From the IMG/VR virus record IMGVR_UViG_3300038393_002515: a DNA stretch of 64,000 nucleotides, one strand, 5' to 3'. Below are positions 1,516-57,221 of the stretch, in pieces. Source of the DNA: a virus. The position numbers and the translations under genes are program-made. Within the stretch, counting starts at the first letter, position 1. Every line of letters begins with the position of its first letter. Below the pieces are notes generated by a model. The model saw nothing but the letters and a program-made list of their open reading frames with translations. It was not told where the DNA came from and did no database searches.

Positions 1516-1529
1516 CCGCCCGCCAGCGC

Positions 1530-2685: not shown

Positions 2686-2698
2686 CACCCGCCACACA

Positions 2699-2712: not shown

Positions 2713-2715
2713 CCG

Positions 2716-3135: not shown

Positions 3136-3204
3136 CCCGGAGCGCCCCGCCGACCGCCACGGCCGGGCGTAGCCTCACCCCGGGCCCGCCAGCCCGCCAA
3201 TACG

Positions 3205-3218
3205 CCCCAGGAGCAACC
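3205..3218 (+). promoter_or_regulatory. Start-associated box variant CCCCAGGAGCAACC (12/14)
   Basis: Ends 4 nt before ATG 3223. A CCCGCCAGC partner lies at 3185-3193. Confidence 0.45.
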
Positions 3219-3222
3219 CGCC

Positions 3223-3462: not shown

Positions 3463-3773
3463 TGGCCGTCATCGACGGCCGCCAGAGCTGGCAGCGCCTG
3501 CGCCCCGCCACCCTCGCCCAGCTCGCCGCGACCATGACCGCCCCGGAGATCGCCGACATGTTCGGCGTCCCCCTGGGCACCGTCCGCTCGCGCCTCGCCG
3601 CCCACCGCATCACCGCCCGCTCCGCCCGCCCGGCAGCCAGCCCTCGGCCCGCCATCCCCCGATGCTCCGCCCCGCTCGCCCTCACCGGCGCACCCTGCGC
3701 CGCCCCGCTCGACCCCGACGGCTCGTGCCGCTGGGCTCACCAGCACACCGACCACACCGCCCAGGAGGCGTGA
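3462..3773 (+). CDS. small HTH DNA-binding protein (103 aa), sigma region-4 / LuxR-like helix-turn-helix
   Basis: The segment TAPEIADMFGVPLGTVRSRLAAHRI has the classic HTH pattern. ATG 3462 follows GCCCAGGAGCGCCC. The rest of the 403-aa track ORF 2562-3773 is compositional junk. Confidence 0.55.
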   Translation: MAVIDGRQSWQRLRPATLAQLAATMTAPEIADMFGVPLGTVRSRLAAHRITARSARPAASPRPAIPRCSAPLALTGAPCAAPLDPDGSCRWAHQHTDHTAQEA

Positions 3774-3777
3774 CCCC

Positions 3778-4167
3778 GTGAAGATCCGGATCACCCGTGC
3801 CGCCGCCGAGTTCACCGTGCGCGGCACGATCGGGCGCGGCCCGCACCTCGCCTACGGTCGCAACCTCGAACACACCATGACCGCCGAGGAGTTCACCGCC
3901 ACGGTGCGCCCCTGGGCCGACGGCGACGGCCCGGCCCGCTGGTCGGTGGCCACGCTCACCATCGAGGGCCGCGCGGTCGACGGCCGCCGCATCACCCCCG
4001 CATGGCAGGCCCGGGGGTTCTACTCCCCACTCGAAGTCCCCGACGCCGACACGCCCGCATGGTTGCTCGACCTCGCCCGCGCCTGCCTGCCCGCCCAGGA
4101 CGCGCCCGCCGTCCCCGTGCGCCCGTTCACCATCCACGCCACGACCGCCCAGGAGCAGCCCCGATGA
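3778..4167 (+). CDS. hypothetical protein (129 aa)
   Basis: GTG start 9 nt after AGGAGG. Stop and next start overlap as ATGA. Confidence 0.6.
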   Translation: MKIRITRAAAEFTVRGTIGRGPHLAYGRNLEHTMTAEEFTATVRPWADGDGPARWSVATLTIEGRAVDGRRITPAWQARGFYSPLEVPDADTPAWLLDLARACLPAQDAPAVPVRPFTIHATTAQEQPR

Positions 4168-25776: not shown

Positions 25777-25790
25777 CCAGCACGCCCTGT

Positions 25791-25831
25791 CTGTGGCGGC
25801 TCGTCCACCCCCAAGGGGTGAGCCACCACAG
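25791..25831 (+). promoter_or_regulatory. Late motif copy: 12-bp hairpin (11/12) CTGTGGCGGCTC/GAGCCACCACAG enclosing CCAAGGGGTGA (25811-25821)
   Basis: Read directly. The 3' arm abuts the SD GGAGGA of ATG 25840. Confidence 0.6.
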
Positions 25832-30902: not shown

Positions 30903-30929
30903 CTGCTGTCCCGGCCCGGCGGCTCCTCC

Positions 30930-30948
30930 CCAAGGGGTGAGATCTCAC
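30930..30948 (+). promoter_or_regulatory. Late motif copy CCAAGGGGTGA overlapping the 12-nt palindrome GTGAGATCTCAC
   Basis: Read directly, 33 nt upstream of ATG 30973. Confidence 0.5.
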
Positions 30949-31890: not shown

Positions 31891-31918
31891 GCCCTGTCTG
31901 GCATGCACGCGGCTGCCG

Positions 31919-31929
31919 CCAAGGGGTGA
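31919..31929 (+). promoter_or_regulatory. Late motif copy CCAAGGGGTGA(AGACG)
   Basis: Between the terminator and ATG 31971. Shares GGGGTGAAGACG with the 43813 copy. Confidence 0.5.
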
Positions 31930-38885: not shown

Positions 38886-39000
38886 CAGCTCAACAAACTG
38901 ACAGACCGCGAACTGACGGGGGTGACGGGGCATGGGCGCAGCGCCGACAACCGCACCGATCCCCTTCTCGTGGATCCTGTCCGGGCGCACCTGTACGTCG

Positions 39001-39013
39001 GCAAGGGGCGAAG
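39001..39013 (+). promoter_or_regulatory. Late motif variant GCAAGGGGCGAAG
   Basis: Resembles the 47690 copy (CCAAGGGGCGAAGG). Lies 23 nt upstream of GTG 39037. Confidence 0.35.
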
Positions 39014-39478: not shown

Positions 39479-39509
39479 GCGACAAACTCTTAATAAGTCT
39501 ATTTGTCGC
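39479..39509. repeat. 8-bp inverted repeat GCGACAAA / TTTGTCGC around the AT-rich 15-mer CTCTTAATAAGTCTA
   Basis: This is the most AT-rich spot I noticed in the window. It lies in the 320-nt non-coding leader before the head-gene block. Confidence 0.6.
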
Positions 39510-39684
39510 CAAAGCGAGGTTCACGCCTCCGCTTCGGCAACAAACCGGTCGCCCAACCTGAATTGTGCCTCAACCCTTGGCCACAGGTTCCCCCTTCACG
39601 AGGCCTATACAACTCCGTATCGAACCCGTTGCCGCCAACGCCCTCCTGCCCGCCCAGCGCACGAGACCTCCTGTTCGTCACACC

Positions 39685-39708
39685 CCCTCCGCCCCCAAGG
39701 AGCGAGGG
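39685..39708 (+). promoter_or_regulatory. Late motif variant CCAAGGAGCGA (39695-39705) in a 5-bp CCCTC/GAGGG hairpin
   Basis: Degenerate copy, 40 nt upstream of GTG 39746. Confidence 0.3.
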
Positions 39709-39745
39709 CGCACCATGCGCCGCCGCCCGCACAGGAGGACCCGGT

Positions 39746-42700
39746 GTGCTGAAGTTCGCCACGGCCCAGATCATCGCCGCGTCGCTCGGCGACCAACAGC
39801 GCATCACCAGGGCGGCCCACCGCGCGGTCTTCCAGTACGAAGCGCGCCCCGGCTTCTTGTACGTACGCAGCAGGGCCATCAGTTCACGCTGCAACGACAA
39901 CTTCGACGAGTTCCCCGCCGAAGAGATCGAAAAGTCGTACAAGACCTTCGTCGGCAAGCCGGTCTTCGTGAACCACGTCAACGACAACCACCGGCGCGCC
40001 CGGGGCGTCATCATCGACGCCGCCCTCCACCGAGACCGCAACCCCGACGGCACGCCGGACACATGGGCCGAAGTCCTCATGGAAATCGACGCCGTCCGGT
40101 TCCCGAAGCTGGCCAAGGCGATCCTCGCCGGACACATCGACCGGACCTCCATGGGCTGCGACGTCGAGCGCTCCGTGTGCTCCGCCTGCGGCAACGAGGC
40201 CCGCACGCCCACCGAGTACTGCTCCCACATCCCGCACCTGAAGGGCAAGCGCATCTTCCGCGCCACCGCCAGCGGGAAGAAGGTCGGCGAGCTCGTCCGC
40301 GAGACCTGCTTCGGCCTCCGGTTCTTCGAGAACAGCGTGCTCGTCGAGCCCCCGGCGGACCCGACTGCTCATTTCCTCGGCGTGGACTCTTCCGGCCTCG
40401 GCAAGGCCGCCTCGAAGAGCGCCGCGATCGACTACTCCGCCTTCGAGGACAACGACGACCTGGAGGCGGACGACGACGGCGAGGACACCGCGCCTCAGCC
40501 GAAGCCCGCCTACCCGGCCTCGCACGCCAAGTCGCCGGTGCCGCATGTCCCGTTCGAGGGCACCACGCACGACCACCAGCGCCGCCAGGACGCGGTGCAG
40601 CACGCCCGGCCCTTCACGCCGCTCAAGCCGAGCCTCAACGGCCTGCAGGCGACGGCGGCCGCGAAGAAGCCCGCGCCCAAGGCGGCCGAGCCCGAGGTGG
40701 ACGAGTACGGCACCCCGAAGCCGAAGCGAGGCCAGCCGTACGAGCCTGCGGGAGACCACCCCTGGTACAAGCAGGTCCCGCTGCACCACTCCAACATCGT
40801 CGACCACTGGGACAAGGCCACCGACGAGGAGAAGGACTCGGGCATGCGCTGGTACAGCGACGCCCACCACGTCGCCAAGGCCATCGCCCGCCTCGACCCG
40901 CGCATCAAGACCGACGAGGAGGCCGCCCACAAGGGCGCCGGTGTCCTGTCGGCCTACAGCCCGCGCACCAACTGGCCGCAGAACATGTTCAACGCGGCCC
41001 ACTCCTTCCACCGCCAGGCCGCCGTCCGCCCTCTCAAGGACGACCCGGACAAGCCCGCCCACGTCACCACCATGGGTATGCACGCCGACAAGGCGCAGCG
41101 CATCATGGACGGCGAGCACCACCAGCCGGTCCTGAACTCGCCCAAGACGCAGGACTTCGCCCACCTCATCGAGCACGGCGGCTACGAGCCGCAGACCGAG
41201 GAGGAGAAGAAGTCCGGTGCCGAACGGCGGCACAGCGGCCGCGTGGTCATCGACCGCCACGCGCTGTCCGTGGCGGCCGGGCGCCGGATCACCGACGTCG
41301 AGAACGACGCCCACCAGGGCTTCCCCGGCGCCTCCAGCGGCAAGCACGCACGGCACTACTACGAGCACGCCGCCAACACCTACCGCAACGCGGCCGCCGC
41401 CATCTCCGAGAAGGAGGGCAAGCCGGTCGCCGCGCACCAGGTGCAGGCGGTGACCTGGCTGGTGCGCCAACGGCTCAACACCGCCGAGGACCAGGCCAAC
41501 GCGAACGCCAGCGCGAAGAACCTGGGCGCGGGCCGCAACAAGGCCGAGGAGAACATCAAGGGCCACTGGAAGGACTTCGCGGGCGAGCACACGCCGGAGC
41601 TGAAGGAAAAGGGCAACTCCCACGTGGCCAGGCTCATTGACGCCACGTACATCAACGACGACGGCACGATCCGCGCCATCGCGTACGGGGAGATCAAGGC
41701 ACCGGCCGACGTCGACACGCTCCGCGAGGAGAACTGCCCGGTCTGCGGCGACAAGGACACCTTCGACGGTATCCAGTGCCAGATCTGCGGGTTCATCAAC
41801 CCGCCCGAGCAGTTCCGTGACCCCGACCTCGACAAGGCCAAGACCCTCGACCTGCGCAAGCAGATCGTCGACCCCAGCCTCGTCGACGACAACGGCGAGC
41901 TGCAGCGTGTCAACGACGACGGCACCGGCATGCCGCAGGAAGACGGCATGCCTGGCGACGAGGAACAGCAGCTGGGCCCCGACGGTCAGCCGCTCGACGA
42001 GGACGGCCCGCAGATGGTCGACCCCGAGCAGCTCGACGAGAACGGCCTGCCGCCCTCCCCGTGGGGCGACCAGACCCTCGACGGCACGATGCAGGGTGCC
42101 CCGACCTTCTCCGACCGCAACGGCGACGGCATGATCCAGCCGGACGAGATCGACCCCGACGGCAACGTCAACGTCCAGCAGAACATGATGGTCGACCCCG
42201 AGCAGGGCGGCCAGGCAGGCCCGCGCGAGCTGCCCGGCCGCGCCAGGGACCGCACGGGCGACCCGTTCACCCCCGGCCCCGACATGCCCCGCCTCCAGGG
42301 CCCCGAAGGACCGGAAGACGGACTGGACGACGAAGACACCTTCCAGGCCGGTCCCGGCATGGGAGCTCCGCAGGAGCCGATCCTGGCGCACCCCGGCGAC
42401 TACACCGGCGACGAGAGCGAGACGCCGCACTGGTCCTGGAACAGGGACGTGGACGAGGAACCCCAGGCGCCCAACGAGGACGAGGACCCGCAAGACCCGC
42501 GTCGCCGACGCCTTGGGATGTCGGCGGCCCCGCGCACCCCGAAGGACGGACAGCCGAACGACGGCGCGCCCGACCTGAGCTGCCCCCACTGCGGATTCGG
42601 AGCGGACGCCACCGCCCCGCAGACCCAGGACATGGGCAACCCGCAAGGCGCGACCGACGGCATCGTCGCCGGAGACGTCTGCCCGAACTGCCGCAAGGCC

Positions 42701-42778
42701 CAGCTGCTCACCCCCGCCGAGCTGCAGGGCGAGTCTTCCGTCCCTCCGCCTGCTGTCCCGCAGCTGTCCCGGAGCTGA
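39746..42778 (+). CDS. 1010-aa fusion protein: N-terminal prohead-protease-like domain, central helical domain of unknown function, Asp/Pro/Gly-rich region and two C-terminal zinc ribbons
   Basis: GTG 39746 follows AGGAGGA. The N-terminal domain reads FVNHVNDNHRRARGVIIDA...IDRTSMGCDVERSVCSACGNEARTPTEYCSHIPH, which recalls T4 gp21-type prohead proteases. Also carries CPVCGDKDTFDGIQCQICG and CPHCGF...CPNCRKAQ. Confidence 0.6.
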   Translation: MLKFATAQIIAASLGDQQRITRAAHRAVFQYEARPGFLYVRSRAISSRCNDNFDEFPAEEIEKSYKTFVGKPVFVNHVNDNHRRARGVIIDAALHRDRNPDGTPDTWAEVLMEIDAVRFPKLAKAILAGHIDRTSMGCDVERSVCSACGNEARTPTEYCSHIPHLKGKRIFRATASGKKVGELVRETCFGLRFFENSVLVEPPADPTAHFLGVDSSGLGKAASKSAAIDYSAFEDNDDLEADDDGEDTAPQPKPAYPASHAKSPVPHVPFEGTTHDHQRRQDAVQHARPFTPLKPSLNGLQATAAAKKPAPKAAEPEVDEYGTPKPKRGQPYEPAGDHPWYKQVPLHHSNIVDHWDKATDEEKDSGMRWYSDAHHVAKAIARLDPRIKTDEEAAHKGAGVLSAYSPRTNWPQNMFNAAHSFHRQAAVRPLKDDPDKPAHVTTMGMHADKAQRIMDGEHHQPVLNSPKTQDFAHLIEHGGYEPQTEEEKKSGAERRHSGRVVIDRHALSVAAGRRITDVENDAHQGFPGASSGKHARHYYEHAANTYRNAAAAISEKEGKPVAAHQVQAVTWLVRQRLNTAEDQANANASAKNLGAGRNKAEENIKGHWKDFAGEHTPELKEKGNSHVARLIDATYINDDGTIRAIAYGEIKAPADVDTLREENCPVCGDKDTFDGIQCQICGFINPPEQFRDPDLDKAKTLDLRKQIVDPSLVDDNGELQRVNDDGTGMPQEDGMPGDEEQQLGPDGQPLDEDGPQMVDPEQLDENGLPPSPWGDQTLDGTMQGAPTFSDRNGDGMIQPDEIDPDGNVNVQQNMMVDPEQGGQAGPRELPGRARDRTGDPFTPGPDMPRLQGPEGPEDGLDDEDTFQAGPGMGAPQEPILAHPGDYTGDESETPHWSWNRDVDEEPQAPNEDEDPQDPRRRRLGMSAAPRTPKDGQPNDGAPDLSCPHCGFGADATAPQTQDMGNPQGATDGIVAGDVCPNCRKAQLLTPAELQGESSVPPPAVPQLSRS

Positions 42779-44392: not shown

Positions 44393-44426
44393 CGCGCCTG
44401 AGCCGAGCGAGAGGACTCAACTCACC

Positions 44427-45413
44427 ATGACCGCAGCGCCCGCCGCCACCGGCCACGTCCGCACCGCCAGGAAGTCGGACGACTACGTCGCCGAGATCCT
44501 CGCCCGACGCGAGCAGCGCGGCAACCAGCCGCTCTCCTTCGAGGCCAAGCGCCAGCGCCTCCAGGCCGTCGCCAGCGACTCCGTCAACGGCATCAAGCGC
44601 CTCGGCGTCGGCATGATCGGCCCCATCCAGCTCAAGCTCCGCTACCAGGGCATCACCCGAAACGTCCTGGTCGAGGACCCCTGCACCCCCGGCACCCCGG
44701 TCGAGTACGACGTCTGGGATGACCTCGGACAGGCCTACATCATGTCCGGCACGGACGGCGAAGTCCGCATCACGCCGTTCGAAGGCAAGCGCATCCAGGT
44801 GCGGTTCTTCCGCATCGCCAGCCGCCCGGCCATCCGCAAGGAAGACCTGCTCTACCTGCGCATCAACGCCGTCGAGCAGGCCCAGGACGAGACCAAGCAG
44901 GCCATCCTCAAGCAGGAAGACTCGCGCCTCGTTACCATCCTGCAGGCCGCGATCTCCGACTACGCGACCCGCTCCGACCACACGGTCACCCCGAACCACA
45001 CGATCACCGAAGCGTCGGGCTACCTGACCCCGGGCTCGCTGTACTCGGCCGTCTCCATGACGGACATGCACGAGCTGCAGTCCAGCCGGATCCTCATCAA
45101 CCCGATGGACTACCGGGACATGTACCGGTGGGACATCAACCAGACCGGCTGGGCGTTCAAGGACCGAGTCGTCGCAGGTGAGACCATCACCAGCTTCGGC
45201 GAGTTCCAGATCCAGCGCTCCATCGTCATCCCGCAGAACAAGATCTTCCTGACGCCGGACCCGCAGTTCCTGGGCGTCTTCCCGGTCCTGTACTCGCTGG
45301 ACGTCGAGGAAAACCACCGTGTCGAGTCCTTCTGGAAGGGCTGGGTGTTCGACGAGATGGTGAGCATGCTGATCCTCAATCCGCGCGGTTTGGCGGTCAT
45401 TCAGAAGAGTTGA
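44427..45413 (+). CDS. major capsid protein (328 aa)
   Basis: ATG 44427. Size and order (protease, scaffold, capsid) fit, and a very strong terminator follows. The sequence style matches phage major capsid families. No search was run. Confidence 0.7.
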   Translation: MTAAPAATGHVRTARKSDDYVAEILARREQRGNQPLSFEAKRQRLQAVASDSVNGIKRLGVGMIGPIQLKLRYQGITRNVLVEDPCTPGTPVEYDVWDDLGQAYIMSGTDGEVRITPFEGKRIQVRFFRIASRPAIRKEDLLYLRINAVEQAQDETKQAILKQEDSRLVTILQAAISDYATRSDHTVTPNHTITEASGYLTPGSLYSAVSMTDMHELQSSRILINPMDYRDMYRWDINQTGWAFKDRVVAGETITSFGEFQIQRSIVIPQNKIFLTPDPQFLGVFPVLYSLDVEENHRVESFWKGWVFDEMVSMLILNPRGLAVIQKS

Positions 45414-45766: not shown

Positions 45767-45877
45767 AGGGTTTGTGGTGGGCCCTCTGTGCGGCTCCGTT
45801 CTCCGGCCGCTGGGCCTCGACCCCCGGGTTCCCCCTTCCCGGGGGTCGAGTGCTGTCTGGGGTGGGGTTGGGCTGCT

Positions 45878-45887
45878 CAAGGGGTGA
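45878..45887 (+). promoter_or_regulatory. Late motif copy CAAGGGGTGA
   Basis: 33 nt upstream of ATG 45921. Confidence 0.5.
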
Positions 45888-47659: not shown

Positions 47660-47674
47660 TGCTTGCTGTTCGTG

Positions 47675-47720
47675 GCCCTCTCGCGGCCGCCAAGGGGCGA
47701 AGGCGACATGAGGAGAGGGC
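47675..47720 (+). promoter_or_regulatory. Late motif copy: 8-bp hairpin GCCCTCTC/GAGAGGGC enclosing CCAAGGGGCGA (47690-47700)
   Basis: The 3' arm overlaps the SD AGGAGAGGG of ATG 47725. Confidence 0.55.
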
Positions 47721-50725: not shown

Positions 50726-51445
50726 ATGCCCGAGCCCACCTTCCGCGACGACGTCACCGTCGAGCTGGTCAAGCACACCGCGTCCGACGCCGATGTTCTC
50801 TTCGCCGCCCGGGTATCCACCGGTACACCCACTGCTCTCGAAGAGATCGGCGCTCTCACAGACCGCGACACCGGCCTCATCAACTACCTGATGAGAGACC
50901 GTCATGGCAGCCCCTTCGAGCACAACTCGATGACGTTCTTCGTCAGCGCGCCGATCTTCGTGTTCCGCGAGTTCATGCGCCACAGGGTCGGGTTCTCCTA
51001 CAACGAGGAGAGCGGGAGGTACCGCGAACTGCAGCCGGTCTTCTACGTGCCCGGGGAGGACCGCAAGCTCGTTCAGACCGGCAAGCCGGGTGCGTACACC
51101 TTCCTCCCCGGCCCGAAGAGCCTGCACGAGCAGGTGTACCGCGAGATGGCCGAGGCCTACGACCGGTCGTACGCGCACTACGTGAGCCTGCTGGGCAAGG
51201 GCGTCGCCCGCGAGGTCGCCCGCGCCGTCCTGCCGGTGGGTCTGTTCTCGTCGATGTACGTCACCTGCAACGCGCGCTCGCTGATGCACTTCCTCGGCCT
51301 GCGCACGACCCACCCGGACGCCAAGGTGCCCTCGTTCCCGCAGCGTGAGATCGAGATGGTGGCCGAGCAGATGGAGGCCGCCTGGGCCGAGCTGATGCCG
51401 GTCACCTACGCCGCCTTCAACGCCAACGGCCGCGTCGCACCGTAG
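50726..51445 (+). CDS. thyX: FAD-dependent thymidylate synthase ThyX
   Basis: 239 aa with the ThyX signature RHRVGFSYNEESGRY (RHRxxSxxxxSxR). Also carries ARSLMHFLGLRT. Confidence 0.9.
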   Translation: MPEPTFRDDVTVELVKHTASDADVLFAARVSTGTPTALEEIGALTDRDTGLINYLMRDRHGSPFEHNSMTFFVSAPIFVFREFMRHRVGFSYNEESGRYRELQPVFYVPGEDRKLVQTGKPGAYTFLPGPKSLHEQVYREMAEAYDRSYAHYVSLLGKGVAREVARAVLPVGLFSSMYVTCNARSLMHFLGLRTTHPDAKVPSFPQREIEMVAEQMEAAWAELMPVTYAAFNANGRVAP

Positions 51446-51479
51446 CGCTCTGGATAAAAATTGGGTACGATCTGGATTC

Positions 51480-51812
51480 ATGACGGATATCAAGCGTGTT
51501 CGTACGTCCAGTGGGGATGTAGTCGACGTCAAGGAACGCATCCGCGAGGGCGTGCCTGAAGGCGATGTTGGTGACGCGGTGGCCGAGGTGGCCGAGCTGC
51601 GTGGCAGGAGTGGCGACGTACAGCTGCACACCAAGCTCGTCCCGGATGCCAACCAGGCCCTCGTCGAGGCGATCGTCCGAAGCGGTCTCGGCAAGTCGGA
51701 AGCGGTCAACCGACTCATCATGATCGGTGGCTTCTTCGACAAGATGAAGAGGCAGGGCTACGACCTGCTGCTCAGCAAGGACGGCGCGACCGAGAAGGTC
51801 CACATCGTCTGA
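51480..51812 (+). CDS. small protein with a ribbon-helix-helix-like segment (110 aa)
   Basis: VQLHTKLVPDANQALVEAIVRSGLGKSEAVNRLI fits a beta-alpha-alpha RHH pattern. The upstream region is locally AT-richer (GGATAAAAATTGGGTACGATCTGGATTC). Confidence 0.45.
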   Translation: MTDIKRVRTSSGDVVDVKERIREGVPEGDVGDAVAEVAELRGRSGDVQLHTKLVPDANQALVEAIVRSGLGKSEAVNRLIMIGGFFDKMKRQGYDLLLSKDGATEKVHIV

Positions 51813-51834
51813 TCATCTGAGCCCTGCACTGTCC

Positions 51835-51876
51835 GCGCCTCCTCCGCCGCCCTCAAGGGGTGAGCAGAGGAGGCGC
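51835..51876 (+). promoter_or_regulatory. Late motif copy: perfect 10-bp hairpin GCGCCTCCTC/GAGGAGGCGC enclosing CAAGGGGTGA (51854-51863)
   Basis: The 3' arm is the SD GAGGAGG of GTG 51878. Confidence 0.65.
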
Positions 51877-51877
51877 C

Positions 51878-52549
51878 GTGCTTGTTTCGTTGGCCGCGTG
51901 GTGGACGACAGATCCCGATGAGTACCGCGAGTACGAGAACATGCACGACCCGGACTACCGGCTGCGCGACCCCAAGGAGACGCCGGTAGCCCGGCGCAAC
52001 CGGTTCATCAAGCACGTCTCCGACGCCCATGGCGTGGATGAGAAGGCGGCCACCAACGCCCTCAAGCACGTCGTCACGCGCGGCCTCGGCGGCTTCGACG
52101 ACCCGGAGAGCTACGGCTTCGCCAGCTCGGCGAACCAGATGACGCACTACTCCCACAGCACTCGCCAGAAGCTGATGGACCCGAAGACCTGGGCGGGCAA
52201 GAAGGAGGAGAGCATCCCCCTTCACCAGGAGATTCACGCCAGCCAGAACTTCATCCGGCCGGACTCCGTGGCGCACAACCTCTTCCACCCTGGCAAGCGC
52301 CAGGCATATGACCACGAGGCCGTTGGCGACCCGGACTACGACCCGAGCTGGGACGAGGACTCACACCGCGAAGAGGACGAAGGGTCGGAGTCCACGCCCG
52401 AGGAGCGCGCTCTGCATGGCACCGCGCGGTTCATGCGGCGCAACAGCGGTCGCCTGGAGGTCGTGGACGGGCATCACCGGGTCGCTGCCGACATGCTGCT
52501 CGGCAAGCCCCACACCAAGGGTGTGATCATCCACGAGCGGGACCTGTAA
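51878..52549 (+). CDS. ParB/Srx-fold (ParB-like nuclease domain) protein (223 aa)
   Basis: The C-terminal LEVVDGHHRVAADMLLG is the characteristic DGxHR motif of ParB N-terminal/Srx domains. The start is uncertain. Confidence 0.55.
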   Translation: MLVSLAAWWTTDPDEYREYENMHDPDYRLRDPKETPVARRNRFIKHVSDAHGVDEKAATNALKHVVTRGLGGFDDPESYGFASSANQMTHYSHSTRQKLMDPKTWAGKKEESIPLHQEIHASQNFIRPDSVAHNLFHPGKRQAYDHEAVGDPDYDPSWDEDSHREEDEGSESTPEERALHGTARFMRRNSGRLEVVDGHHRVAADMLLGKPHTKGVIIHERDL

Positions 52550-53274
52550 TGCTGGTCGAGGTCCCGGAGGTCCACCTGGTCACCCATCCCGACCGCATGA
52601 TCATGGTCGAGAAGGGGCTGTCGCCGAAGCGCGCCCGTGCCGCCGCGCTGGAGGCCGTACGACAGGCCCGGCGCCGGATGCCGAAGCTCACCGGCGCCGC
52701 CGCGCGCGGGCTGCAGCCGCTGTACGGCAAGGGGTACTTCGGGCTCTCCTGGGCCACCGAGGTCGTCTGGTACCAGGACCACGGCACCAAGCCGTTCACC
52801 ATGCGCTCGCTGGCCGGGCGGGTCATCCCGATGTGGATCGACGACCCGACCGGCCAGGAGCGGCGCGACAACCCCAAGGCCAAGACGCGCACCACGGAGT
52901 CCGGGAAGGTGCAGGTGCTGATCTTCCGGCGCGCGGCCCGCATCGGGGAGCGGAAGAAGGTCTACCGCAAGGACCCGAAGACGGGTCTGAAGGTGCTGGT
53001 CTCCGACACCCCGGCCCACTACCCGGGCGCGCCGGGCCGCATCGGCTGGCGTGAGGCCAAGCAGCCCTGGACCAGGCCGGGAAAGCGGCCGGGCGCCATC
53101 CACCCGGGCAACATCGGCGTCTGGTGGCGCCACCCGGGCCTGAAGCCCCGGAGTTTTTTGAACACGTCCATGACCCTCGCGGCGCAGAAGAACGGCCTGG
53201 TGGCCGAGCGGGTCTACGTCGCCGACCGGTCCTGGAGAAACAGCGTCCGCCTGCACGGCGAGGAGTTCCGGTAG
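52549..53274 (+). CDS. virion protein (241 aa), HK97 gp10-like tail-completion candidate
   Basis: GLSWATEVVWYQDHGTKPFTM resembles the gp10-family motif (y..y.E.GT...P). Weak call. Confidence 0.35.
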   Translation: MLVEVPEVHLVTHPDRMIMVEKGLSPKRARAAALEAVRQARRRMPKLTGAAARGLQPLYGKGYFGLSWATEVVWYQDHGTKPFTMRSLAGRVIPMWIDDPTGQERRDNPKAKTRTTESGKVQVLIFRRAARIGERKKVYRKDPKTGLKVLVSDTPAHYPGAPGRIGWREAKQPWTRPGKRPGAIHPGNIGVWWRHPGLKPRSFLNTSMTLAAQKNGLVAERVYVADRSWRNSVRLHGEEFR

Positions 53275-53285
53275 GGAGCTGTCCG

Positions 53286-53323
53286 GCCCGCCTCTCGCAC
53301 CCCAAGGGGTGACGGAGGAGGGC
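53286..53323 (+). promoter_or_regulatory. Late motif copy: 9-bp hairpin (8/9) GCCCGCCTC/GAGGAGGGC enclosing CCAAGGGGTGA (53302-53312)
   Basis: The 3' arm overlaps the SD GGAGGAGGG of ATG 53328. Confidence 0.55.
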
Positions 53324-53327
53324 TGCC

Positions 53328-54083
53328 ATGACCTTGGTGTGGTCGCAGATCATTCGGCTGAGCCAGTGGGGCGACGACTGGGCGCCGAAGGACAGCGACG
53401 AGGACGTCCACCCGGGCGAGATCGAGAGTCACCGGGGCAGCTGGGAGCTGAACCAGCATCATGTCAACCGGCTGGCCGACTCCATCCGGCAGCACGGCTA
53501 CAGCCCGGAGCGGCACGGCGTGCTGGGGTGGAACTTCCACCAGGGCGGCGAGAACGTCTACAACCACGCCTCGGGCACCGAGACCGACCCCAACGACCAC
53601 CTGCACCACGAGCATCTGCTGCAGGCGCTCAAGGACGTCGGGCACGGCCCGGTACGGGTGCACATCCACGATCAAGACTCGGACGAGCGCGGCAACTCGC
53701 CTCGGTACTACCACGGCACCACGGTCGAGGATCTCAAAGAGGTCAAGCCCAACCACAGCACGCGGGGCTCCTTCGGGAACAACGGAGCGATCCACGAGCC
53801 GGGCTACGCCTACGCCACCAGCCGCGAGAACGCTGAGAGCTACGCCGAGAGCAAGGCCGAAATCCATGGCGGTCGCCCTCTCGTCTACCGCGTCTCGCCG
53901 CTGGGTCCGGTCGAGAAGGACCCTTCGCACGACGCGCAGGGGCGCAGCAGGGCTAACTACGAATCGGACGTCCGGTCCAAGCACGGCTTCCAGGTCCTGG
54001 ACCACGTCTGGTCCGGCGAGCACCCGGACGGCGACGAGGCATGGCACGACGATGAGGATGATTACGACGGCGGGTGGCACTGA
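53328..54083 (+). CDS. two-domain protein (251 aa): N-terminal ParB-like segment plus C-terminal Arr-like (rifampin ADP-ribosyltransferase family) domain
   Basis: PRYYHGTTVEDL...PGYAYATSRENAESYAE...GGRPLVYRVSPLGPVEKDPS aligns by eye to the Arr pattern FYHGT...IYF(S/T)...A.WGAELA...GRGYIYIVEPTGPFEDDPN, covering the H, Y and D catalytic positions. Confidence 0.6.
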   Translation: MTLVWSQIIRLSQWGDDWAPKDSDEDVHPGEIESHRGSWELNQHHVNRLADSIRQHGYSPERHGVLGWNFHQGGENVYNHASGTETDPNDHLHHEHLLQALKDVGHGPVRVHIHDQDSDERGNSPRYYHGTTVEDLKEVKPNHSTRGSFGNNGAIHEPGYAYATSRENAESYAESKAEIHGGRPLVYRVSPLGPVEKDPSHDAQGRSRANYESDVRSKHGFQVLDHVWSGEHPDGDEAWHDDEDDYDGGWH

Positions 54084-54718
54084 TGTACATCACCCGGGTC
54101 AAGGCCCTCGCCATCGAGGCGCTGCAGGCGGTCTTCGACAGCCAGTATCCCGTGACGGAGTTCCGGGGTCTGCACTGCTCGCTGGAGTACCCGGTCGAGA
54201 AGTCGTCGTTCCCCGAGGTCTGGGTGCGCTACAACGACACCGGCCCGCTGCGGCGGGCGGGCGTCTCACACGTCGAGGACACCGATCCGGGTGACGGTGG
54301 CCGGGTGCCGCCGTACACGCGTTTCCGGTTCGAGGGCTCCTGGGAGTTCGTTGTCGTCGCGCTGTCGAGCGTGGAGCGGGACCGGGTCTACGACGAGCTG
54401 GTCGCGACGATCGCCTTCTCCGGCTTCGATCCGTTGCGCAGCCGGTTCCGGTCGTACCTGGAGAACAACGACCTGATCGACCTGACAATCCGGACGGACG
54501 AGATCGAGTCGACCGGCGAGTCGGCTGAGCCGGGCACGCCGTGGGGGACGGACGAGGTCGTCTACGAGCGGACGTTGGCCATCGACCTGATCGGGGACTT
54601 CACGCCGGACCCGATGCAGGCCGGAGTGATCGTGCCTCTGTCGAAGATCGTGGTCACGCCGACCGCCGACCCCACCCTCGACGACCTCAGCGACAGCGGC
54701 TTCGACTCCTGGCACTGA
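54083..54718 (+). CDS. virion or tail-proximal protein (211 aa)
   Basis: ATGA overlap at 54083. Lies just upstream of the sheath gene. Function inferred from position only. Confidence 0.55.
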   Translation: MYITRVKALAIEALQAVFDSQYPVTEFRGLHCSLEYPVEKSSFPEVWVRYNDTGPLRRAGVSHVEDTDPGDGGRVPPYTRFRFEGSWEFVVVALSSVERDRVYDELVATIAFSGFDPLRSRFRSYLENNDLIDLTIRTDEIESTGESAEPGTPWGTDEVVYERTLAIDLIGDFTPDPMQAGVIVPLSKIVVTPTADPTLDDLSDSGFDSWH

Positions 54719-54720
54719 GA

Positions 54721-54966
54721 TCAGGACCCTAGCGATCCGCCTTCGTTCTCCCAGACCTCCACCATCGTCCTCCAGGAGGCTTCCTTGCGCCTTCGCTTCG
54801 AGCGGTTCAGAGTGTGCCACCAGCCACATACGCACTGGTAGGGCTTGTGGACGTCGCCGTCCCTCTCGTGTAGCTCCTGGCACTTCAGGAGAGCCAAGTC
54901 CTTGCTGAACTTCCGCTTCTTCGTCGGGCATGGAACGTACCGCCTGCGCCCACCTCTCCTCGCCAT
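54721..54966 (-). CDS. small basic protein (81 aa) with a CxCGWWH motif and a WENEGG tail, on the opposite strand inside the tail module
   Basis: Reads MARRGGRRRYVPCPTKKRKF...KPYQCVCGWWHTLNRSKRRRKE...WENEGGSLGS. Codon third positions are mostly G/C. Flanked by a 19-nt direct repeat. Confidence 0.55.
   Translation of the reverse strand: MARRGGRRRYVPCPTKKRKFSKDLALLKCQELHERDGDVHKPYQCVCGWWHTLNRSKRRRKEASWRTMVEVWENEGGSLGS
54722..54740. repeat. Direct repeat copy 1: CAGGACCCTAGCGATCCGC
   Basis: 18/19 identical to 54969-54987. Overlaps the stop codon and last codons of the minus-strand ORF. Confidence 0.75.
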
Positions 54967-54987: not shown

Positions 54988-55006
54988 TCCTGTCCACCGC
55001 CGCCCC

Positions 55007-55031
55007 GTCAGCCCAAGGGGTGACAGCTGAC
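55007..55031 (+). promoter_or_regulatory. Late motif copy: 6-bp hairpin GTCAGC/GCTGAC enclosing CCAAGGGGTGA (55013-55023)
   Basis: Read directly, 28 nt upstream of ATG 55052. Confidence 0.55.
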
Positions 55032-55051
55032 CGACGCGACTGGTGGGTGGC

Positions 55052-56578
55052 ATGCCCGACATCTCTTCTGCGACGTACACGCCGCCCGGCGTGTACGTCA
55101 GCGACGAATCGACTCCCACGGTCACCCCGCGCGGTGTGTCGACCACGACCGTCACGGTGATCGGCCCGGCCCTGGGCTACCAGACGACCAGCGAGGTCGT
55201 CACCGTCAACTCCGCCTCGGCGACCGCGCTGTCGCAGCGCGGCGTGTACACCACGGCCGTCGTGGGCCCGCCTGCCATCGCGGCGCCCGTGGTCACGACC
55301 CTGTCGGGCACGGCCATGGTCTACAACACCGACTACACCTTCGTGGTGACCGCCGGTTCCGGCGGTGCGGCGACGGCGGTCACCTCGATCAAGCGGCTGT
55401 CGGCCAGCCAGAGTGACCTGACCCAGCCGTCGCCGAACGGTCTGAAGGACGGCGACCAGGTCCGGGTGACGTACGCGTTCACCAACGCGACGTACTACGA
55501 GCCGACCGAGTTCGAGGACTACGACCAGATCGTGGCCACGTACGGGCAGGCGATGGTGACGACCGCGCCGACGAGCCCGACCGCGTCGCAGGTCGCCTCG
55601 GCGCTGACGCTGGCGGCGAAGATCGCCCTGGAGAACGGCGCGGCCAGCGTCCTGTGCGTCGCCACCAACCCGTCGGCCGGGGACTACAGGGCGCAGCTGC
55701 AGGCGGCGTACAGCAAGCTGGAGGCGGACTACCGGGCGCAGATCCTGGTGCCGCTGTTCGTGGACGGTGCGTACAACGCGCACACGCCGACGAACGTGGC
55801 GAACCTGCTGGCCGACGTCAAGAATCACTGCGAGACGGCGGCGGCCGACGGCTACGGGCGCCTGGCGTTCACCGGCCTGGCCACGAACTACGACAACACG
55901 GTCGGTCACGACCAGCTGGCGCTGGCGCAGGCCAGCAAGCGGCTGGTGCTGTGTTACCCGAACCGGCTGTTGGCCTTCAACTCGGCTGTGAACGCCTCTA
56001 CGGAGGTCGACGGCTTCTACCTGGCCGCCGCGATGGCCGGGCGTCTGGCGCGGAACGCGGTCGCGCGTGGGCTGACGAACCAGTCGCTGACGTCGTTCAC
56101 CGGTCTGCCCGCGACGATCGCGCAGGCCATGACCCGGACCTTCCGTAACAACCTGTCGAAGTCCGGTGTGAACGTCGCGGAGATCAACCAGAACGGCCAG
56201 CTGGTCGCCCGGCACGGCGTCTCGACGAACATGTCGTCGATCCTGACGCAGGAGATCTCGCTGACCCGGATCGGCGACGTCCTGCTGCAGATGATCCAGG
56301 TCGGCATGTCCAACGCCGGGCTGATCGGTGAGCCGATCACGGCCGAGACAACGATCAACGTGAAGTCGGCGCTGATCGGCCTGCTGGAGCAGGCGGTCTC
56401 CGACTCGATCATCGTCTCCTACGCGAACGCGCAGGTGCGGCAGCAGTCGGCGGACCCCTCGGTGATCGAGGGGACCTTCAGCTACAAGCCCCCGATCCCG
56501 ATGAACTACGTCGTCGTGAAGTTCGCCGTCGACCTGACAACCGGCGACACGACCACGGAGACGGACCAGAACGCCTGA
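55052..56578 (+). CDS. contractile tail sheath protein (508 aa)
   Basis: The N-terminus ATYTPPGVYVSDES is the typical sheath PGVY motif. Size fits and it is followed by tube and chaperone genes. GTG 55043 is an alternative start. Confidence 0.8.
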   Translation: MPDISSATYTPPGVYVSDESTPTVTPRGVSTTTVTVIGPALGYQTTSEVVTVNSASATALSQRGVYTTAVVGPPAIAAPVVTTLSGTAMVYNTDYTFVVTAGSGGAATAVTSIKRLSASQSDLTQPSPNGLKDGDQVRVTYAFTNATYYEPTEFEDYDQIVATYGQAMVTTAPTSPTASQVASALTLAAKIALENGAASVLCVATNPSAGDYRAQLQAAYSKLEADYRAQILVPLFVDGAYNAHTPTNVANLLADVKNHCETAAADGYGRLAFTGLATNYDNTVGHDQLALAQASKRLVLCYPNRLLAFNSAVNASTEVDGFYLAAAMAGRLARNAVARGLTNQSLTSFTGLPATIAQAMTRTFRNNLSKSGVNVAEINQNGQLVARHGVSTNMSSILTQEISLTRIGDVLLQMIQVGMSNAGLIGEPITAETTINVKSALIGLLEQAVSDSIIVSYANAQVRQQSADPSVIEGTFSYKPPIPMNYVVVKFAVDLTTGDTTTETDQNA

Positions 56579-56717: not shown

Positions 56718-57221
56718 ATGCCTGCAGGCAAGGTCCGCGTCACCGGCTCCGGCTACAGCACGTTCGTGTACGCCGGTAAGCCGATCGCGTTCCTCAACTC
56801 GGTGGAGGACTCCGGCCAGCGGGCGTGGAGCGACAAGGGGCAGGCGTACAGCTTCATCCAGCCCCTCGGCTCGCGCACGCCGGTGGAGATCGCGACCTCC
56901 CGCGTTCTGGGCGGCGGCACGCTGCAGCTGACGATCCAGGAGCTGTGGAACCAGGCGATCTGGGAGCAGCTGGCCGGTCTGGCCGGAACGAACAACATCG
57001 TCGAGATCTTCGACCGCCTGGCGCGGACGCCGAACTACGTCACCGCGCAGACGATCATCAAGCCGCCGGGCACCGAGGCAACCCCCTCGAAGTGGCGCGG
57101 CAAGATCTATCACAACGTCACCGTGGTCGACATCGCCGACGGCGACACCTTGACGGTCGGCGGCCTGGACGTCGCCAAGCCCGTGGTCTGCGCCTACACC
57201 CACACATCCCGACTGCGCTGA
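56718..57221 (+). CDS. tail tube protein (167 aa)
   Basis: Position between the sheath and the G/GT chaperones, plus size. Confidence 0.6.
   Translation: MPAGKVRVTGSGYSTFVYAGKPIAFLNSVEDSGQRAWSDKGQAYSFIQPLGSRTPVEIATSRVLGGGTLQLTIQELWNQAIWEQLAGLAGTNNIVEIFDRLARTPNYVTAQTIIKPPGTEATPSKWRGKIYHNVTVVDIADGDTLTVGGLDVAKPVVCAYTHTSRLR

What the first reader, a model, noticed from the sequence alone, without database searches (positions are those of the whole stretch)
51878..54083. Arr-like ADP-ribosyltransferase domain fused to a ParB-like segment, next to a second ParB/Srx protein, inside the virion gene block
SEEN:
- The C-terminal half of the 53328-54083 product reads SPRYYHGTTVEDLKEV...HEPGYAYATSRENAESYAESKAEIHGGRPLVYRVSPLGPVEKDPSHD.
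- By eye this aligns with the rifampin ADP-ribosyltransferase (Arr) pattern GPFYHGTKANL...HIYF(S/T)...EPAVWGAELA...GRGYIYIVEPTGPFEDDPN. The alignment includes the His (HGT), Tyr and Asp positions.
- Its N-terminal half (LNQHHVNRLADSIRQHGYSPE) and the neighbouring 51878-52549 product (LEVVDGHHRVAADML) carry ParB N-terminal/Srx-type motifs.
- Each of the three genes 51878, 52549 and 53328 either has its own late-motif hairpin or is translationally coupled.

ESTABLISHED: Arr enzymes ADP-ribosylate rifamycins. Arr-fold ARTs belong to the wider H-Y-[EDQ] clade, which also modifies nucleic acids or proteins in conflict systems. ParB/Srx domains recur in nucleotide-centred conflict systems.

INFERENCE: This is a late-expressed, possibly virion-associated ART. 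It could modify a host target, phage or host DNA/RNA, or a small molecule, with a counter-defence or takeover role. A rifamycin-resistance moron is the alternative, and would be relevant because many actinomycetes make rifamycin-like compounds.
Basis: partly seen in the sequence, partly recalled or inferred. Interest (0 to 1): 0.8.

Follow-up and report, generated by a model that had tools for sequence, protein, structure and literature searches.

The report
Leader-tagged phage ADP-ribosyltransferase, virion block
A large Streptomyces-type phage carries, among its head and tail genes, a two-part enzyme (nucleotide-binding fold plus ADP-ribosyltransferase) that resembles phage proteins thought to be injected into the host more than a rifampicin-resistance enzyme, and it shares a short N-terminal tag with neighbouring enzymes.

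Summary
Gene C (53328-54083) encodes an N-terminal sulfiredoxin/ParB-fold domain and a C-terminal Arr-like ADP-ribosyltransferase (ART). His129, Tyr162 and Asp198 align with Arr catalytic H19/Y49/D84 and are invariant in 43 homologues. Gene A (51878-52549) is a divergent ParB/Srx-like protein with an invariant DGHHR motif. Both lie between the major capsid and tail sheath genes, behind a repeated motif/hairpin.

It is very unlikely to be a rifampicin-resistance enzyme. It scores 18.6 bits against a 130-bit equivalog cutoff. It lacks the Arr helix that forms the main rifampicin pocket. Its closest ART relatives are domains inside giant multidomain "polyvalent" phage proteins.

The order B-C-D-sheath is conserved across a lineage of ~150-kb actinobacterial myoviruses, one filed as a Streptomyces "plasmid".

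New finding: C, A, stand-alone ARTs, a GNAT and unknown proteins in this slot all start with the same leader, MSLLWxxA. This parallels T4 internal proteins, which share only a capsid-targeting sequence.

Best reading (inferred, ~0.5): late-made, leader-tagged effector enzymes packaged into the virion and delivered to the host, where C ADP-ribosylates a macromolecule. The target, packaging and activity are untested.

The parts
51829..51863 (+). Bipartite motif CTGTCC-N19-CAAGGGGTGA upstream of gene A. It lies within a hairpin (-35 kcal/mol) whose 3' arm contains the GGAGG Shine-Dalgarno sequence.
51878..52549 (+). Gene A, 223 aa: divergent ParB/Srx-like protein. The invariant DGHHR motif is at 52466-52480. 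The N-terminus MLVSLAAWW is a degenerate form of the family leader MSLLWxxxMAWW. This gene is accessory: it is present in the window, L007 and L012 and absent in L001 and L013-L016.
52549..53274 (+). Gene B, 241 aa, very basic (pI 11.1), PHROG 2819 (function unknown). It is a conserved core gene of the lineage (82-88% identity in the Streptomyces elements) and is coupled to A through a TAATG overlap.
53279..53312 (+). Bipartite motif CTGTCC-N18-CAAGGGGTGA upstream of gene C, within a hairpin (-32.3 kcal/mol) that includes the Shine-Dalgarno sequence.
53328..53351 (+). Leader of gene C, MTLVWSQI (family consensus MSLLWxxA). It lies in a low-confidence N-terminal extension of the structural model.
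53385..53678 (+). Gene C residues ~20-117: sulfiredoxin/ParB-fold domain. It carries the motif L..SI..HGYSPE. An HHEH motif (from residue 93) sits where the ParB/Srx GxxR arginine would be.
53697..54017 (+). Gene C residues ~124-230: Arr-like H-Y-D ADP-ribosyltransferase core. Catalytic codons: H129 at 53712-53714, Y162 at 53811-53813, D198 at 53919-53921.
54018..54083 (+). Gene C acidic, His-rich tail ending in W-H, plus the stop codon. It takes the place of Arr helix alpha2, which forms the rifampicin pocket. The stop overlaps the start of D as TGATG.
54083..54718 (+). Gene D, 211 aa, PHROG 2748 (function unknown). It is a conserved core gene directly upstream of the sheath gene and is translationally coupled to C.
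54990..55023 (+). The same bipartite motif upstream of the tail sheath gene.
55043..56578 (+). Tail sheath gene (context: downstream boundary of the cassette slot).
44400..45413 (+). Major head protein gene (context: upstream virion genes).

Best explanation
Gene C encodes a small effector enzyme of the polyvalent-protein type. It has four parts: an 8-residue leader (MTLVWSQI, consensus MSLLWxxA), a divergent sulfiredoxin/ParB-fold domain, an Arr-like H-Y-D ADP-ribosyltransferase with an intact catalytic triad, and an acidic tail in place of the Arr rifampicin-binding helix. It is transcribed with the virion genes from a repeated motif and is translationally coupled to a conserved gene next to the sheath gene. 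Gene A is a second enzyme of the same kind: ParB/Srx-like, with a DGHHR motif and the leader.

Proposed mechanism (inferred). The shared leader directs these unrelated enzymes into the assembling virion, as the capsid-targeting sequence does for T4 internal proteins, and T4 Alt is likewise a head-packaged ART. The enzymes enter the host with the DNA. C then uses NAD+ to ADP-ribosylate a conserved host macromolecule, protein or nucleic acid, to aid takeover or counter-defence. The Srx/ParB domain would supply nucleotide or nucleic-acid binding, or target recognition.

Shown here: domain folds, catalytic residues, gene context, synteny, the shared leader and the relationship to polyvalent-protein ARTs.
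Inferred: late timing, packaging, delivery, enzyme activity and target.
For: ART identity and intact triad.

Not a canonical Arr:
- NCBIfam rifampin_ARR scores 18.6 bits against a cutoff of 130 and matches only profile positions 4-105 of 131.
- Helix alpha2 with the M[RK][DE]xL motif forms the main rifampicin pocket (PMC6092378). It is absent in all 43 family members and replaced by a 14-38 aa acidic tail.

Nearest ART relatives:
- They score E=1e-30 to 1e-15, whereas canonical Arr reaches only 21.7 bits.
- They are domains in 600-3200 aa multidomain, sometimes multi-copy, proteins that also carry GNAT, NUDIX, 2H or ART-PolyVal domains on phage contigs.
- This matches the polyvalent proteins of Iyer et al. 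2017, which combine ART and ParB domains and are predicted to be packaged and injected (PMC5512222).
- Foldseek against viral models also finds PcfJ-like, ParB/Sulfiredoxin (1022 aa) and vRNAP proteins.

Context and conservation:
- The genes lie between the major head protein and the sheath.
- B-C-D-sheath is conserved in 7 related ~150-kb elements, including L012 where the sheath is only 50% identical.
- More distant relatives (L017, L018) have stand-alone leader-ARTs beside B, upstream of D and the sheath gene.

Leader:
- 42 of 43 C-family and 26 of 43 A-family sequences start with it.
- So do five stand-alone ARTs, a second ART in L012, and four consecutive genes in L018: an ART, a 112-aa unknown, a GNAT and a 156-aa unknown.
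- Synonymous codon variation shows that selection acts on the peptide, not the DNA.
- Precedent: T4 internal proteins are diverse and share only a capsid-targeting sequence (PMC3012670).

Iyer et al. 2022 note that phage ARTs cluster with head and packaging genes and are probably packaged (PMC9503650).
Against: - There are no proteomic, transcriptomic or biochemical data.
- The window protein itself is below the Pfam gathering score (21.6 against 25).
- C's N-domain lacks the ParB/Srx arginine, so its activity is unclear.
- No protease cleavage motif could be defined after the leader.
- The leader could have another role, such as assembly-line docking, regulated degradation, or homology for cassette exchange.
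- The repeated motif could be an RNA-processing or structural element rather than a late promoter.
- No phage in INPHARED carries a BLAST-detectable homologue, so there is no experimental relative.
- Iyer et al. 2022 interpret actinophage Arr-family ARTs as small-molecule modifiers.
Confidence: 0.5

Rival explanations
1. Small-molecule ART. C ADP-ribosylates rifamycins or another diffusible compound, for example an antiphage metabolite made by actinomycetes. This would protect the host or phage replication, so C would be a resistance or anti-chemical-defence gene rather than an injected effector.
For: - Arr is the top hit in both Pfam and the PDB.
- NCBI names the homologues NAD(+)--rifampin ADP-ribosyltransferase.
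- Iyer et al. 2022 propose this role for Arr-family ARTs of Microbacterium and Gordonia phages (PMC9503650).
- The hosts appear to be Streptomyces/Kitasatospora, which produce antibiotics.
Against: - The equivalog score is 18.6 against a cutoff of 130.
- The alpha2 helix and the M126/L130/L133/A139/I141 pocket residues have no counterpart.
- The DPN[VL] motif is not kept.
- The closest relatives are ART domains in giant polyvalent proteins, not stand-alone Arr enzymes.
- The fixed position in the virion module and coupling to core genes is atypical for a moron.
- Apparent late expression would protect the host too late to matter.
Confidence: 0.13
2. Intracellular late function, not delivered. 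C and A act in the infected cell late in infection on phage DNA, virion proteins or host factors (for example DNA modification for anti-restriction, or control of assembly). The leader would be an assembly or processing tag unrelated to ejection.
For: - C and A sit behind the putative late motif and are coupled to conserved virion-module genes B and D.
- ParB/Srx domains bind nucleotides and DNA (PMC5512222).
- A thymidylate synthase gene (ThyX or ThyA) lies just upstream in all relatives checked.
Against: - The ART clade is shared with polyvalent proteins from unrelated phages, which are predicted to be injected.
- Variable leader-tagged cassettes (ART, GNAT, unknowns) look like exchangeable conflict effectors rather than fixed assembly factors.
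- ThyX sits in the structural region in Myrna too, without A or C, so that linkage is probably incidental.
Confidence: 0.22
3. Catalytically inactive structural protein. The ART and Srx folds have been co-opted as a neck or tail accessory component with no enzymatic role.
For: - The gene lies between neck/tail-type genes and is coupled to D.
- C's N-domain has lost the ParB/Srx arginine.
Against: - H129, Y162 and D198, the NAD-loop residues (N142, G147, F149, G150) and the R208/D214/R216/S217/H219 loop are invariant or nearly invariant across 43 sequences that otherwise share about 58% mean column identity. That pattern is typical of an active enzyme.
Confidence: 0.07

Closest known systems
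Polyvalent proteins of phages and conjugative elements (Iyer, Burroughs, Anand, de Souza, Aravind 2017, PMC5512222), with H-Y-D ART and ParB/Srx domains
   Same: - Two unrelated conflict-type domains (ParB/Srx fold and H-Y-D ART) sit in one polypeptide.
- The gene lies among late virion genes.
- C's ART domain has its closest relatives (E down to 1e-30) inside 600-3200 aa multidomain phage proteins with GNAT, NUDIX, 2H and ART-PolyVal domains.
   Different: - C is very small (251 aa).
- Its ART scores with Pfam Arr-ms rather than ART-PolyVal.
- There is no metallopeptidase or MuF module.
- In this lineage the same domain repertoire is mostly split into separate small genes, each with the MSLLW leader. 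That paper does not describe such a leader, judging from the sections and term searches read here.
Rifampin ADP-ribosyltransferase Arr (Arr-ms PDB 2HW2, Arr-2; Pfam PF12120; NCBIfam NF033144)
   Same: The ART core fold, the order of secondary-structure elements, the HGT motif, and the catalytic H19/Y49/D84 equivalents.
   Different: - The match to Arr-ms is only 21.7 bits, and the equivalog score is 18.6 against 130.
- It lacks helix alpha2 and the hydrophobic rifampicin pocket.
- It has an extra N-terminal Srx/ParB domain, a leader and an acidic tail.
- It is encoded in a phage virion module.
T4 Alt and T4 internal proteins IPI-III with their capsid-targeting sequence
   Same: - T4 Alt is an ART made late, encoded with virion genes, packaged in the head and injected (PMC5512222).
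- T4 internal proteins are diverse cargo proteins that share only a short N-terminal targeting sequence (PMC3012670). This parallels the MSLLWxxA leader on unrelated enzymes.
   Different: - Alt belongs to the R-S-E ART clade, not H-Y-D.
- There is no sequence similarity between the leader and the T4 CTS.
- Packaging and cleavage are unproven here.
ParB/Srx superfamily enzymes (sulfiredoxin, ParB CTPase, SbnI/SerK kinases, Osa, DdrB-like ParB)
   Same: - The predicted fold of C's N-domain and of A.
- A keeps the DGxHR-type motif in register with Spo0J GERR and SbnI DGVHR.
   Different: - Neither protein gets a Pfam ParBc hit.
- A has large helical insertions.
- C replaces the active-site arginine motif with HHEH.
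- There is no ParA partner and no HTH DNA-binding domain.

Membership tests
Rifampin ADP-ribosyltransferase (Arr) | ART core with the catalytic H19, Y49 and D84 of Arr-ms | tested here: met
   H129/Y162/D198 align to H19/Y49/D84 and are invariant in 43 sequences. Foldseek's top hits are Arr structures 9iaf/2hw2, E=6e-5.
Rifampin ADP-ribosyltransferase (Arr) | Score above the curated family thresholds (Pfam PF12120 gathering score 25; NCBIfam NF033144 equivalog cutoff 130) | tested here: not met
   Pfam 21.6 bits. NCBIfam 18.6 bits, covering profile positions 4-105 of 131. All 43 family members match PF12120 at E<=0.01, best E=1.6e-9.
Rifampin ADP-ribosyltransferase (Arr) | Rifampicin pocket: helix alpha2 with the M[RK][DE]xL motif (M126, L130, L133) plus A139 and I141 (PMC6092378) | tested here: not met
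   The alignment to Arr-2 stops at residue ~126. The remainder of C is a 14-38 aa acidic, disordered tail in all 43 members, and the motif does not occur at that position.
Rifampin ADP-ribosyltransferase (Arr) | NAD+-dependent ADP-ribosylation of rifamycins, conferring resistance | not testable with these tools
   Needs an MIC assay and an enzyme assay.
Polyvalent proteins (Iyer et al. 2017) | Two or more domains of disparate biochemical activity in one polypeptide, drawn from the polyvalent repertoire (ART, ParB, GNAT and others) | tested here: met
   An Srx/ParB fold and an H-Y-D ART are present in one 251-aa protein. The definition is in PMC5512222.
Polyvalent proteins (Iyer et al. 2017) | Encoded in the late or virion-packaging gene context of a phage | tested here: met
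   The gene lies between the major head protein and the tail sheath. The same position is conserved in 7 related elements.
Polyvalent proteins (Iyer et al. 2017) | The ART domain is homologous to ART domains of bona fide large polyvalent proteins | tested here: met
   Hits at E=1e-30 to 1e-15 lie inside 619-3178 aa proteins, some with 2-4 ART copies and with NUDIX, 2H, GNAT or ART-PolyVal domains.
Polyvalent proteins (Iyer et al. 2017) | Packaged in the virion and injected with the DNA | not testable with these tools
   Needs virion proteomics and infection assays.
ParB/Srx superfamily (C N-domain and gene A) | The alpha+beta ParB/Srx fold | tested here: met
   C: sulfiredoxin 1xw4 E=3.9e-4, probability 1.0; ParB 6sdk rmsd 3.7 over 97 columns. 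A: the top 47 PDB hits are all ParB/Srx proteins, but E is never better than 0.076. The fold is clear for C and weaker for A.
ParB/Srx superfamily (C N-domain and gene A) | A conserved active-site arginine (GxxR, DGxHR or GERR motif) | tested here: inconclusive
   A meets it: DGHHR is invariant and is in register with Spo0J GERR and SbnI DGVHR. C does not: the equivalent helix begins HHEH, with no arginine.
ParB/Srx superfamily (C N-domain and gene A) | Significant sequence match to Pfam ParBc (PF02195) or to a solved ParB/Srx protein | tested here: not met
   No Pfam hit at E<=1. The profile search against the PDB finds only SbnI at E=1.7. hhalign E-values are 0.2-0.3.
CTS-tagged head cargo (T4 internal protein/Alt type) | Unrelated cargo proteins share only a short N-terminal sequence | tested here: met
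   The MSLLWxxA leader is found on the C family, the A family, stand-alone ARTs, a GNAT and two unknown proteins. The A and C profiles are otherwise unrelated.
CTS-tagged head cargo (T4 internal protein/Alt type) | The leader is necessary and sufficient for encapsidation and is removed by the prohead protease | not testable with these tools
   Needs N-terminal proteomics of virions and leader-reporter fusions.

The most novel reading that the evidence does not exclude
The MSLLWxxA leader is a previously undescribed virion- or capsid-targeting signal of a lineage of ~150-kb Streptomyces myoviruses, some of which persist as plasmid-like elements. It would mark an exchangeable cassette slot between conserved genes B and D, next to the sheath gene. 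That slot holds 1-4 small enzymes (Srx-ART, ART, ParB/Srx-like, GNAT, unknowns) that are packaged and injected. In effect this would be an unfused counterpart of polyvalent proteins, with an Arr-fold ART repurposed from antibiotic modification to macromolecule modification.
Probability: 0.33. Interest if true: 0.75.

Novelty: new variant of a known kind. Interest (0 to 1): 0.58.

Why it matters
- Annotation. Homologues in Streptomyces assemblies are automatically named NAD(+)--rifampin ADP-ribosyltransferase. The evidence here says they are phage virion-module effectors without the rifampicin pocket, so they inflate resistome counts.
- Biology. The locus offers a tractable example in actinophages of effector enzymes that are probably virion-delivered, a class predicted computationally but little tested outside T4, P1 and N4. 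It also shows an Arr-fold ART clade that probably acts on macromolecules.
- Tool potential. If the 8-residue leader is a packaging signal, it would directly allow loading foreign proteins into actinophage virions. It would also serve as a search key for finding new cargo and effector families by their N-terminus alone.

Tried and rejected
- Megablast of 51400-54800 and tblastn of C and B against INPHARED phages found no match. tblastn of C against PLSDB found no match.
- PADLOC gave no hits for A-D.
- phmmer of C, B and D as single sequences against the PDB found nothing meaningful.
- hhalign of the C-family profile against the A-family profile showed no relationship beyond the short leader, so the idea that A is a paralogue of C's N-domain is rejected.
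- hhalign of A against B. subtilis Spo0J and of C against human Srx was not significant, although the alignments are in register. Only the Arr-2 sequence was verified against a database record, at 99.3% identity.
- tblastn of Arr-2 against phages found only Acinetobacter integron-type arr genes, not the Microbacterium/Gordonia Arr-like genes mentioned by Iyer et al. 2022.
- The DNA pattern 'late motif + MSLLW codons' found 0 matches in IMG/VR and 0 in GTDB genomes. The pattern was probably too strict.
- A literature search for MSLLW found nothing relevant.
- I first considered the terminal Trp of the acidic tail to be a docking signal. The alignment shows it corresponds to the conserved (E/D)(D/E)W that closes the ART domain in Arr-2 and its relatives, so that idea is dropped.
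- A functional link to the adjacent ThyX gene was considered and judged incidental, because ThyX also sits in the structural region of Myrna, which has no A or C.


Full report
**What is there**

The window is 66-72% G+C over most of its length and ~77% over the first 4 kb. It carries a myovirus virion module: a protein with a head-maturation protease domain (39503-42778), the major head protein (44400-45413), the tail sheath (55043-56578) and a virion structural protein (56718-57221).
- The major head protein is 58-60% identical to those of Mycobacterium cluster C phages (Myrna, Phabba), Rhodococcus E3/Finch and Gordonia phages.
- There is no nucleotide match in INPHARED.

The genes between head and sheath are as follows.

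| Gene | Coordinates | Size | Assignment |
|---|---|---|---|
| ThyX | 50726-51445 | 239 aa | thymidylate synthase |
| unnamed | 51480-51812 | 110 aa | unknown |
| A | 51878-52549 | 223 aa | ParB/Srx-like |
| B | 52549-53274 | 241 aa | pI 11.1, PHROG 2819, unknown |
| C | 53328-54083 | 251 aa | Srx/ParB fold + Arr-like ART |
| D | 54083-54718 | 211 aa | PHROG 2748, unknown |

A/B overlap as TAATG and C/D as TGATG.

**Checking the Arr-like claim**

- C hits Pfam Arr-ms at E=2.5e-4 (21.6 bits, below the gathering score of 25) over profile positions 1-96 of 99. It also gives a weaker ART-PolyVal hit.
- A database search returned 43 homologues at 47-100% identity. All 43 match PF12120, best E=1.6e-9.
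- A profile of the family finds Arr-ms (2HW2) as the top PDB sequence, E=1.4e-3. Arr H19, Y49 and D84 align to H129, Y162 and D198. These three are invariant in the family.
- The AlphaFold2 model (pLDDT 84.2, pTM 0.75) has Arr structures 9iaf/2hw2 as its best Foldseek hits (E=6e-5) for the C-terminal half. Human sulfiredoxin (E=3.9e-4) and ParB (E=0.018) match the N-terminal half.

The two-domain reading by eye was correct.

**Checking the ParB/Srx claim for gene A**

- The A family has 56 homologues and no Pfam domain. It has an invariant DGHHR motif.
- Its model is confident (pLDDT 90.6). The top 47 Foldseek PDB hits are all ParB/Srx-superfamily proteins (Noc, Srx, ParB, PadC, KorB, SbnI, SerK), but E is never better than 0.076.
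- The profile search against the PDB finds only SbnI at E=1.7, aligned through DGHHR/DGVHR.
- hhalign against Spo0J places DGHHRVAAD on AGERRFRAA but is not significant.

A is therefore probably a ParB/Srx-fold protein that keeps the active-site arginine. C's N-domain has the fold and the L..SI..HG..P helix, but it carries HHEH where the GxxR motif would be.

**It is not a canonical rifampicin Arr**

- The NCBIfam equivalog model rifampin_ARR scores 18.6 bits against a cutoff of 130, and matches only positions 4-105 of 131.
- In Arr-ms the main hydrophobic rifampicin pocket is formed by F39 plus helix alpha2 (M126, L130, L133 in an M[RK][DE]xL motif) and A139/I141 (PMC6092378).
- Alignment to a verified Arr-2 sequence ends at about residue 126. 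In all 43 family members the rest is a 14-38 aa tail with 27-62% Asp+Glu and no alpha2 motif at that position. The model shows no helix there.

**What the ART domain is related to**

An exhaustive profile search of 1.84 billion representative proteins gave 218 hits.
- About ten clusters have the full Srx+ART architecture.
- Most of the others match only the ART part, at E=1e-30 to 1e-15, far better than canonical Arr.
- Many of these lie inside proteins of 619-3178 aa, with up to four ART copies.
- Sampled examples carry GNAT, NUDIX, 2H-phosphoesterase or ART-PolyVal domains and sit on phage-like contigs.

This matches the polyvalent proteins of Iyer et al. 2017. [quoted passage not shown] They are predicted to be packaged and injected (PMC5512222). 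Foldseek against viral models agrees: the hits include a PcfJ-like 714-aa protein, a ParB/Sulfiredoxin 1022-aa protein and a vRNAP.

A multiple alignment shows that C shares clade-specific motifs with these domains: AYAT, AxxYAE, PxVYxV and GxSRGN..DxRSxxGF. Arr-2 and Arr-ms lack them.

**Comparative context**

The gene order B-C-D-sheath is conserved in L001, L007 and L013-L016. These are ~150-kb contigs from Streptomyces assemblies, one deposited as 'plasmid pRLB1-9.1' of Streptomyces sp. cg35. The order is also conserved in L012, a 153-kb metagenomic contig.

| Comparison with the window | B | C | D | Sheath |
|---|---|---|---|---|
| L013-L016 (Streptomyces elements) | 82-88% | 58-62% | 71-79% | 77-82% |
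| L012 (distant relative) | 55% | 32% | 44% | 50% |

- C is a long-standing resident of the virion module. It evolves faster than its neighbours.
- A is accessory: present in the window, L007 and L012, absent elsewhere.
- When C lacks its own upstream motif it is translationally coupled to B.

**The leader (new)**

- 42 of 43 C-family and 26 of 43 A-family proteins begin with M-[ST]-L-[LV]-W. The two families are otherwise unrelated.
- The same start occurs on five stand-alone ARTs of 132-187 aa, where the ART core begins 10-25 residues later.
- It also occurs on a second ART in L012, as MSQLW.
- In L018, four consecutive, overlapping genes between B and D carry it: an ART, a 112-aa unknown, a GNAT (Pfam 30.5 bits) and a 156-aa unknown.
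- In L017 a leader-ART sits just before B.
- Codons for the leader vary synonymously, so the peptide is what is conserved.
- In both models the leader lies in a low-confidence N-terminal extension.
- In the window, C has the leader (MTLVWSQI) and A has a degenerate form (MLVSLAAWW). No other ORF in the window has it.
- I found no literature on this leader.

**The repeated upstream element**

- CAAGGGGTGA occurs 7 times exactly, all on the + strand. With one mismatch allowed there are 13 matches against 3.8 expected.
- It is the 3' part of a 34-36 nt element, CTGTYN-N18-19-CAAGGGGYGA. The element is found at nine window sites between 25.8 and 55.0 kb, upstream of genes that include A, C and the sheath gene, and at orthologous sites in related elements.
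- In many copies the CCCAAGGGGTG core caps a hairpin whose arms differ in sequence but stay complementary. For A and C the 3' arm includes the Shine-Dalgarno sequence.
- Whether it is a late promoter, an RNA structure or both cannot be decided here. 'Late' is inferred from the genes it precedes.

**Mechanism and confidence**

I rate the domain architecture and intact ART active site at about 0.9. I rate the statement that C is not a rifampicin Arr at about 0.85. The overall model is rated about 0.5: leader-tagged enzymes made with the virion, packaged, delivered, with C ADP-ribosylating a host macromolecule.

Rivals:
- a small-molecule ART, including the antiphage-metabolite idea of Iyer et al. 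2022 (PMC9503650): 0.13;
- a late intracellular function without delivery: 0.22;
- an inactive structural protein: 0.07.

The strong conservation of the loop equivalent to Arr's substrate loop (R208, D214, R216, S217, H219, G220, F221) argues for a widely conserved target rather than a lineage-specific antibiotic. The loop is conserved both in the C family and in polyvalent-type relatives from other phages. This is inference.

**Novelty**

Already in the literature:
- Arr-family ARTs in actinophages (PMC9503650);
- ART+ParB polyvalent proteins (PMC5512222).

Databases already name the homologues, probably wrongly, as rifampin ARTs.

New here:
- the specific Srx/ParB-Arr-like fusion without the rifampicin helix;
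- its fixed place in a ~150-kb Streptomyces myovirus / plasmid-like lineage;
- the shared leader that defines a variable effector cassette slot.

Noticed in passing
window 25787-25821, 30906-30940, 31894-31929, 38977-39011, 45853-45887, 47666-47700, 51829-51863, 53279-53312, 54990-55023: A bipartite element CTGTYN-N18-19-CAAGGGG(T/C)GA occurs only on the + strand, upstream of genes in the 25.8-55.0 kb region, and is conserved at orthologous sites in related elements. Many copies form hairpins with covarying stems. It could be a phage-specific late promoter, an RNA element, or both.
   Followed up: partly
L018:4543-6222 (metagenomic relative); also L012:5267-8771 and L017:8001-8453: Between core genes B and D, a related phage has four consecutive overlapping genes that each start with (M/V)SLLW: an ART, a 112-aa unknown, a GNAT acetyltransferase and a 156-aa unknown. 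L012 has three such genes (ART2, A, C). This looks like a variable array of leader-tagged cassettes.
   Followed up: partly
window 50726-51445 compared with L007:9143-9946: The thymidylate synthase gene just upstream of the A-B-C-D block is ThyX in the window and in L013-L016, but ThyA (PF00303) at the same place in L007. This is a non-orthologous replacement at a fixed position in the structural region. Myrna also has ThyX among its head genes.
   Followed up: partly
L013 (NZ_CP191269.1), L014-L016, L007; window source contig: Relatives are ~151-157 kb contigs in Streptomyces isolate assemblies. One is a complete 151,251-bp replicon deposited as 'plasmid pRLB1-9.1'. This suggests a phage-plasmid or carrier-state lifestyle. 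An identical copy of the window's protein C lies on a 309,833-bp metagenomic contig (probably the window's source), about twice the ~155 kb unit length, so that contig may be an assembled concatemer.
   Followed up: no
homologues P0002, P0003, P0005, P0013, P0022, P0042 (NCBI): Public annotation names these phage virion-module proteins 'NAD(+)--rifampin ADP-ribosyltransferase'. Given the missing rifampicin pocket and the equivalog score of 18.6 against 130, this is probably an over-annotation that would inflate resistome counts.
   Followed up: yes
window 52549-53274 (B) and 53328-54083 (C): B is strongly basic (pI 11.1, 19% Lys+Arg). It sits between two acidic proteins: A (pI 5.8) and C (pI 5.4, 10% His with about 13 invariant or near-invariant histidines). 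The His-rich pattern in C may indicate metal binding.
   Followed up: no
window 1-4000: The first 4 kb are markedly richer in G+C (77%) than the rest (66-72%) and have strongly negative GC skew (-0.27). The cause was not examined.
   Followed up: no
window 39503-42778: A 1091-aa protein combines a head-maturation protease-like region (PHROG 18299, residues 134-283) with DUF7178 (residues 430-655). It is a candidate processing enzyme or scaffold that could recognise the leader.
   Followed up: no
window 28002-30902: A 966-aa protein has pectate-lyase-like and right-handed beta-helix domains and an endosialidase N-terminal extension. It is probably a tail fibre or spike depolymerase.
   Followed up: no
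L008:10001-10636 (Nannocystis pusilla, JAIRAU010000035.1): A homologue of gene A (about 40% identity) sits alone in a myxobacterial chromosome among apparently cellular genes. The A family is therefore not restricted to this phage lineage.
   Followed up: no
proteins P0119, P0127, P0144 (ART-domain relatives): Several ART relatives from outside this lineage start with a different shared N-terminal motif, W-x-E-x-x-H-P-R-D-x-x-G-x-F. Other phage groups may use a different N-terminal tag on the same ART domain.
   Followed up: no
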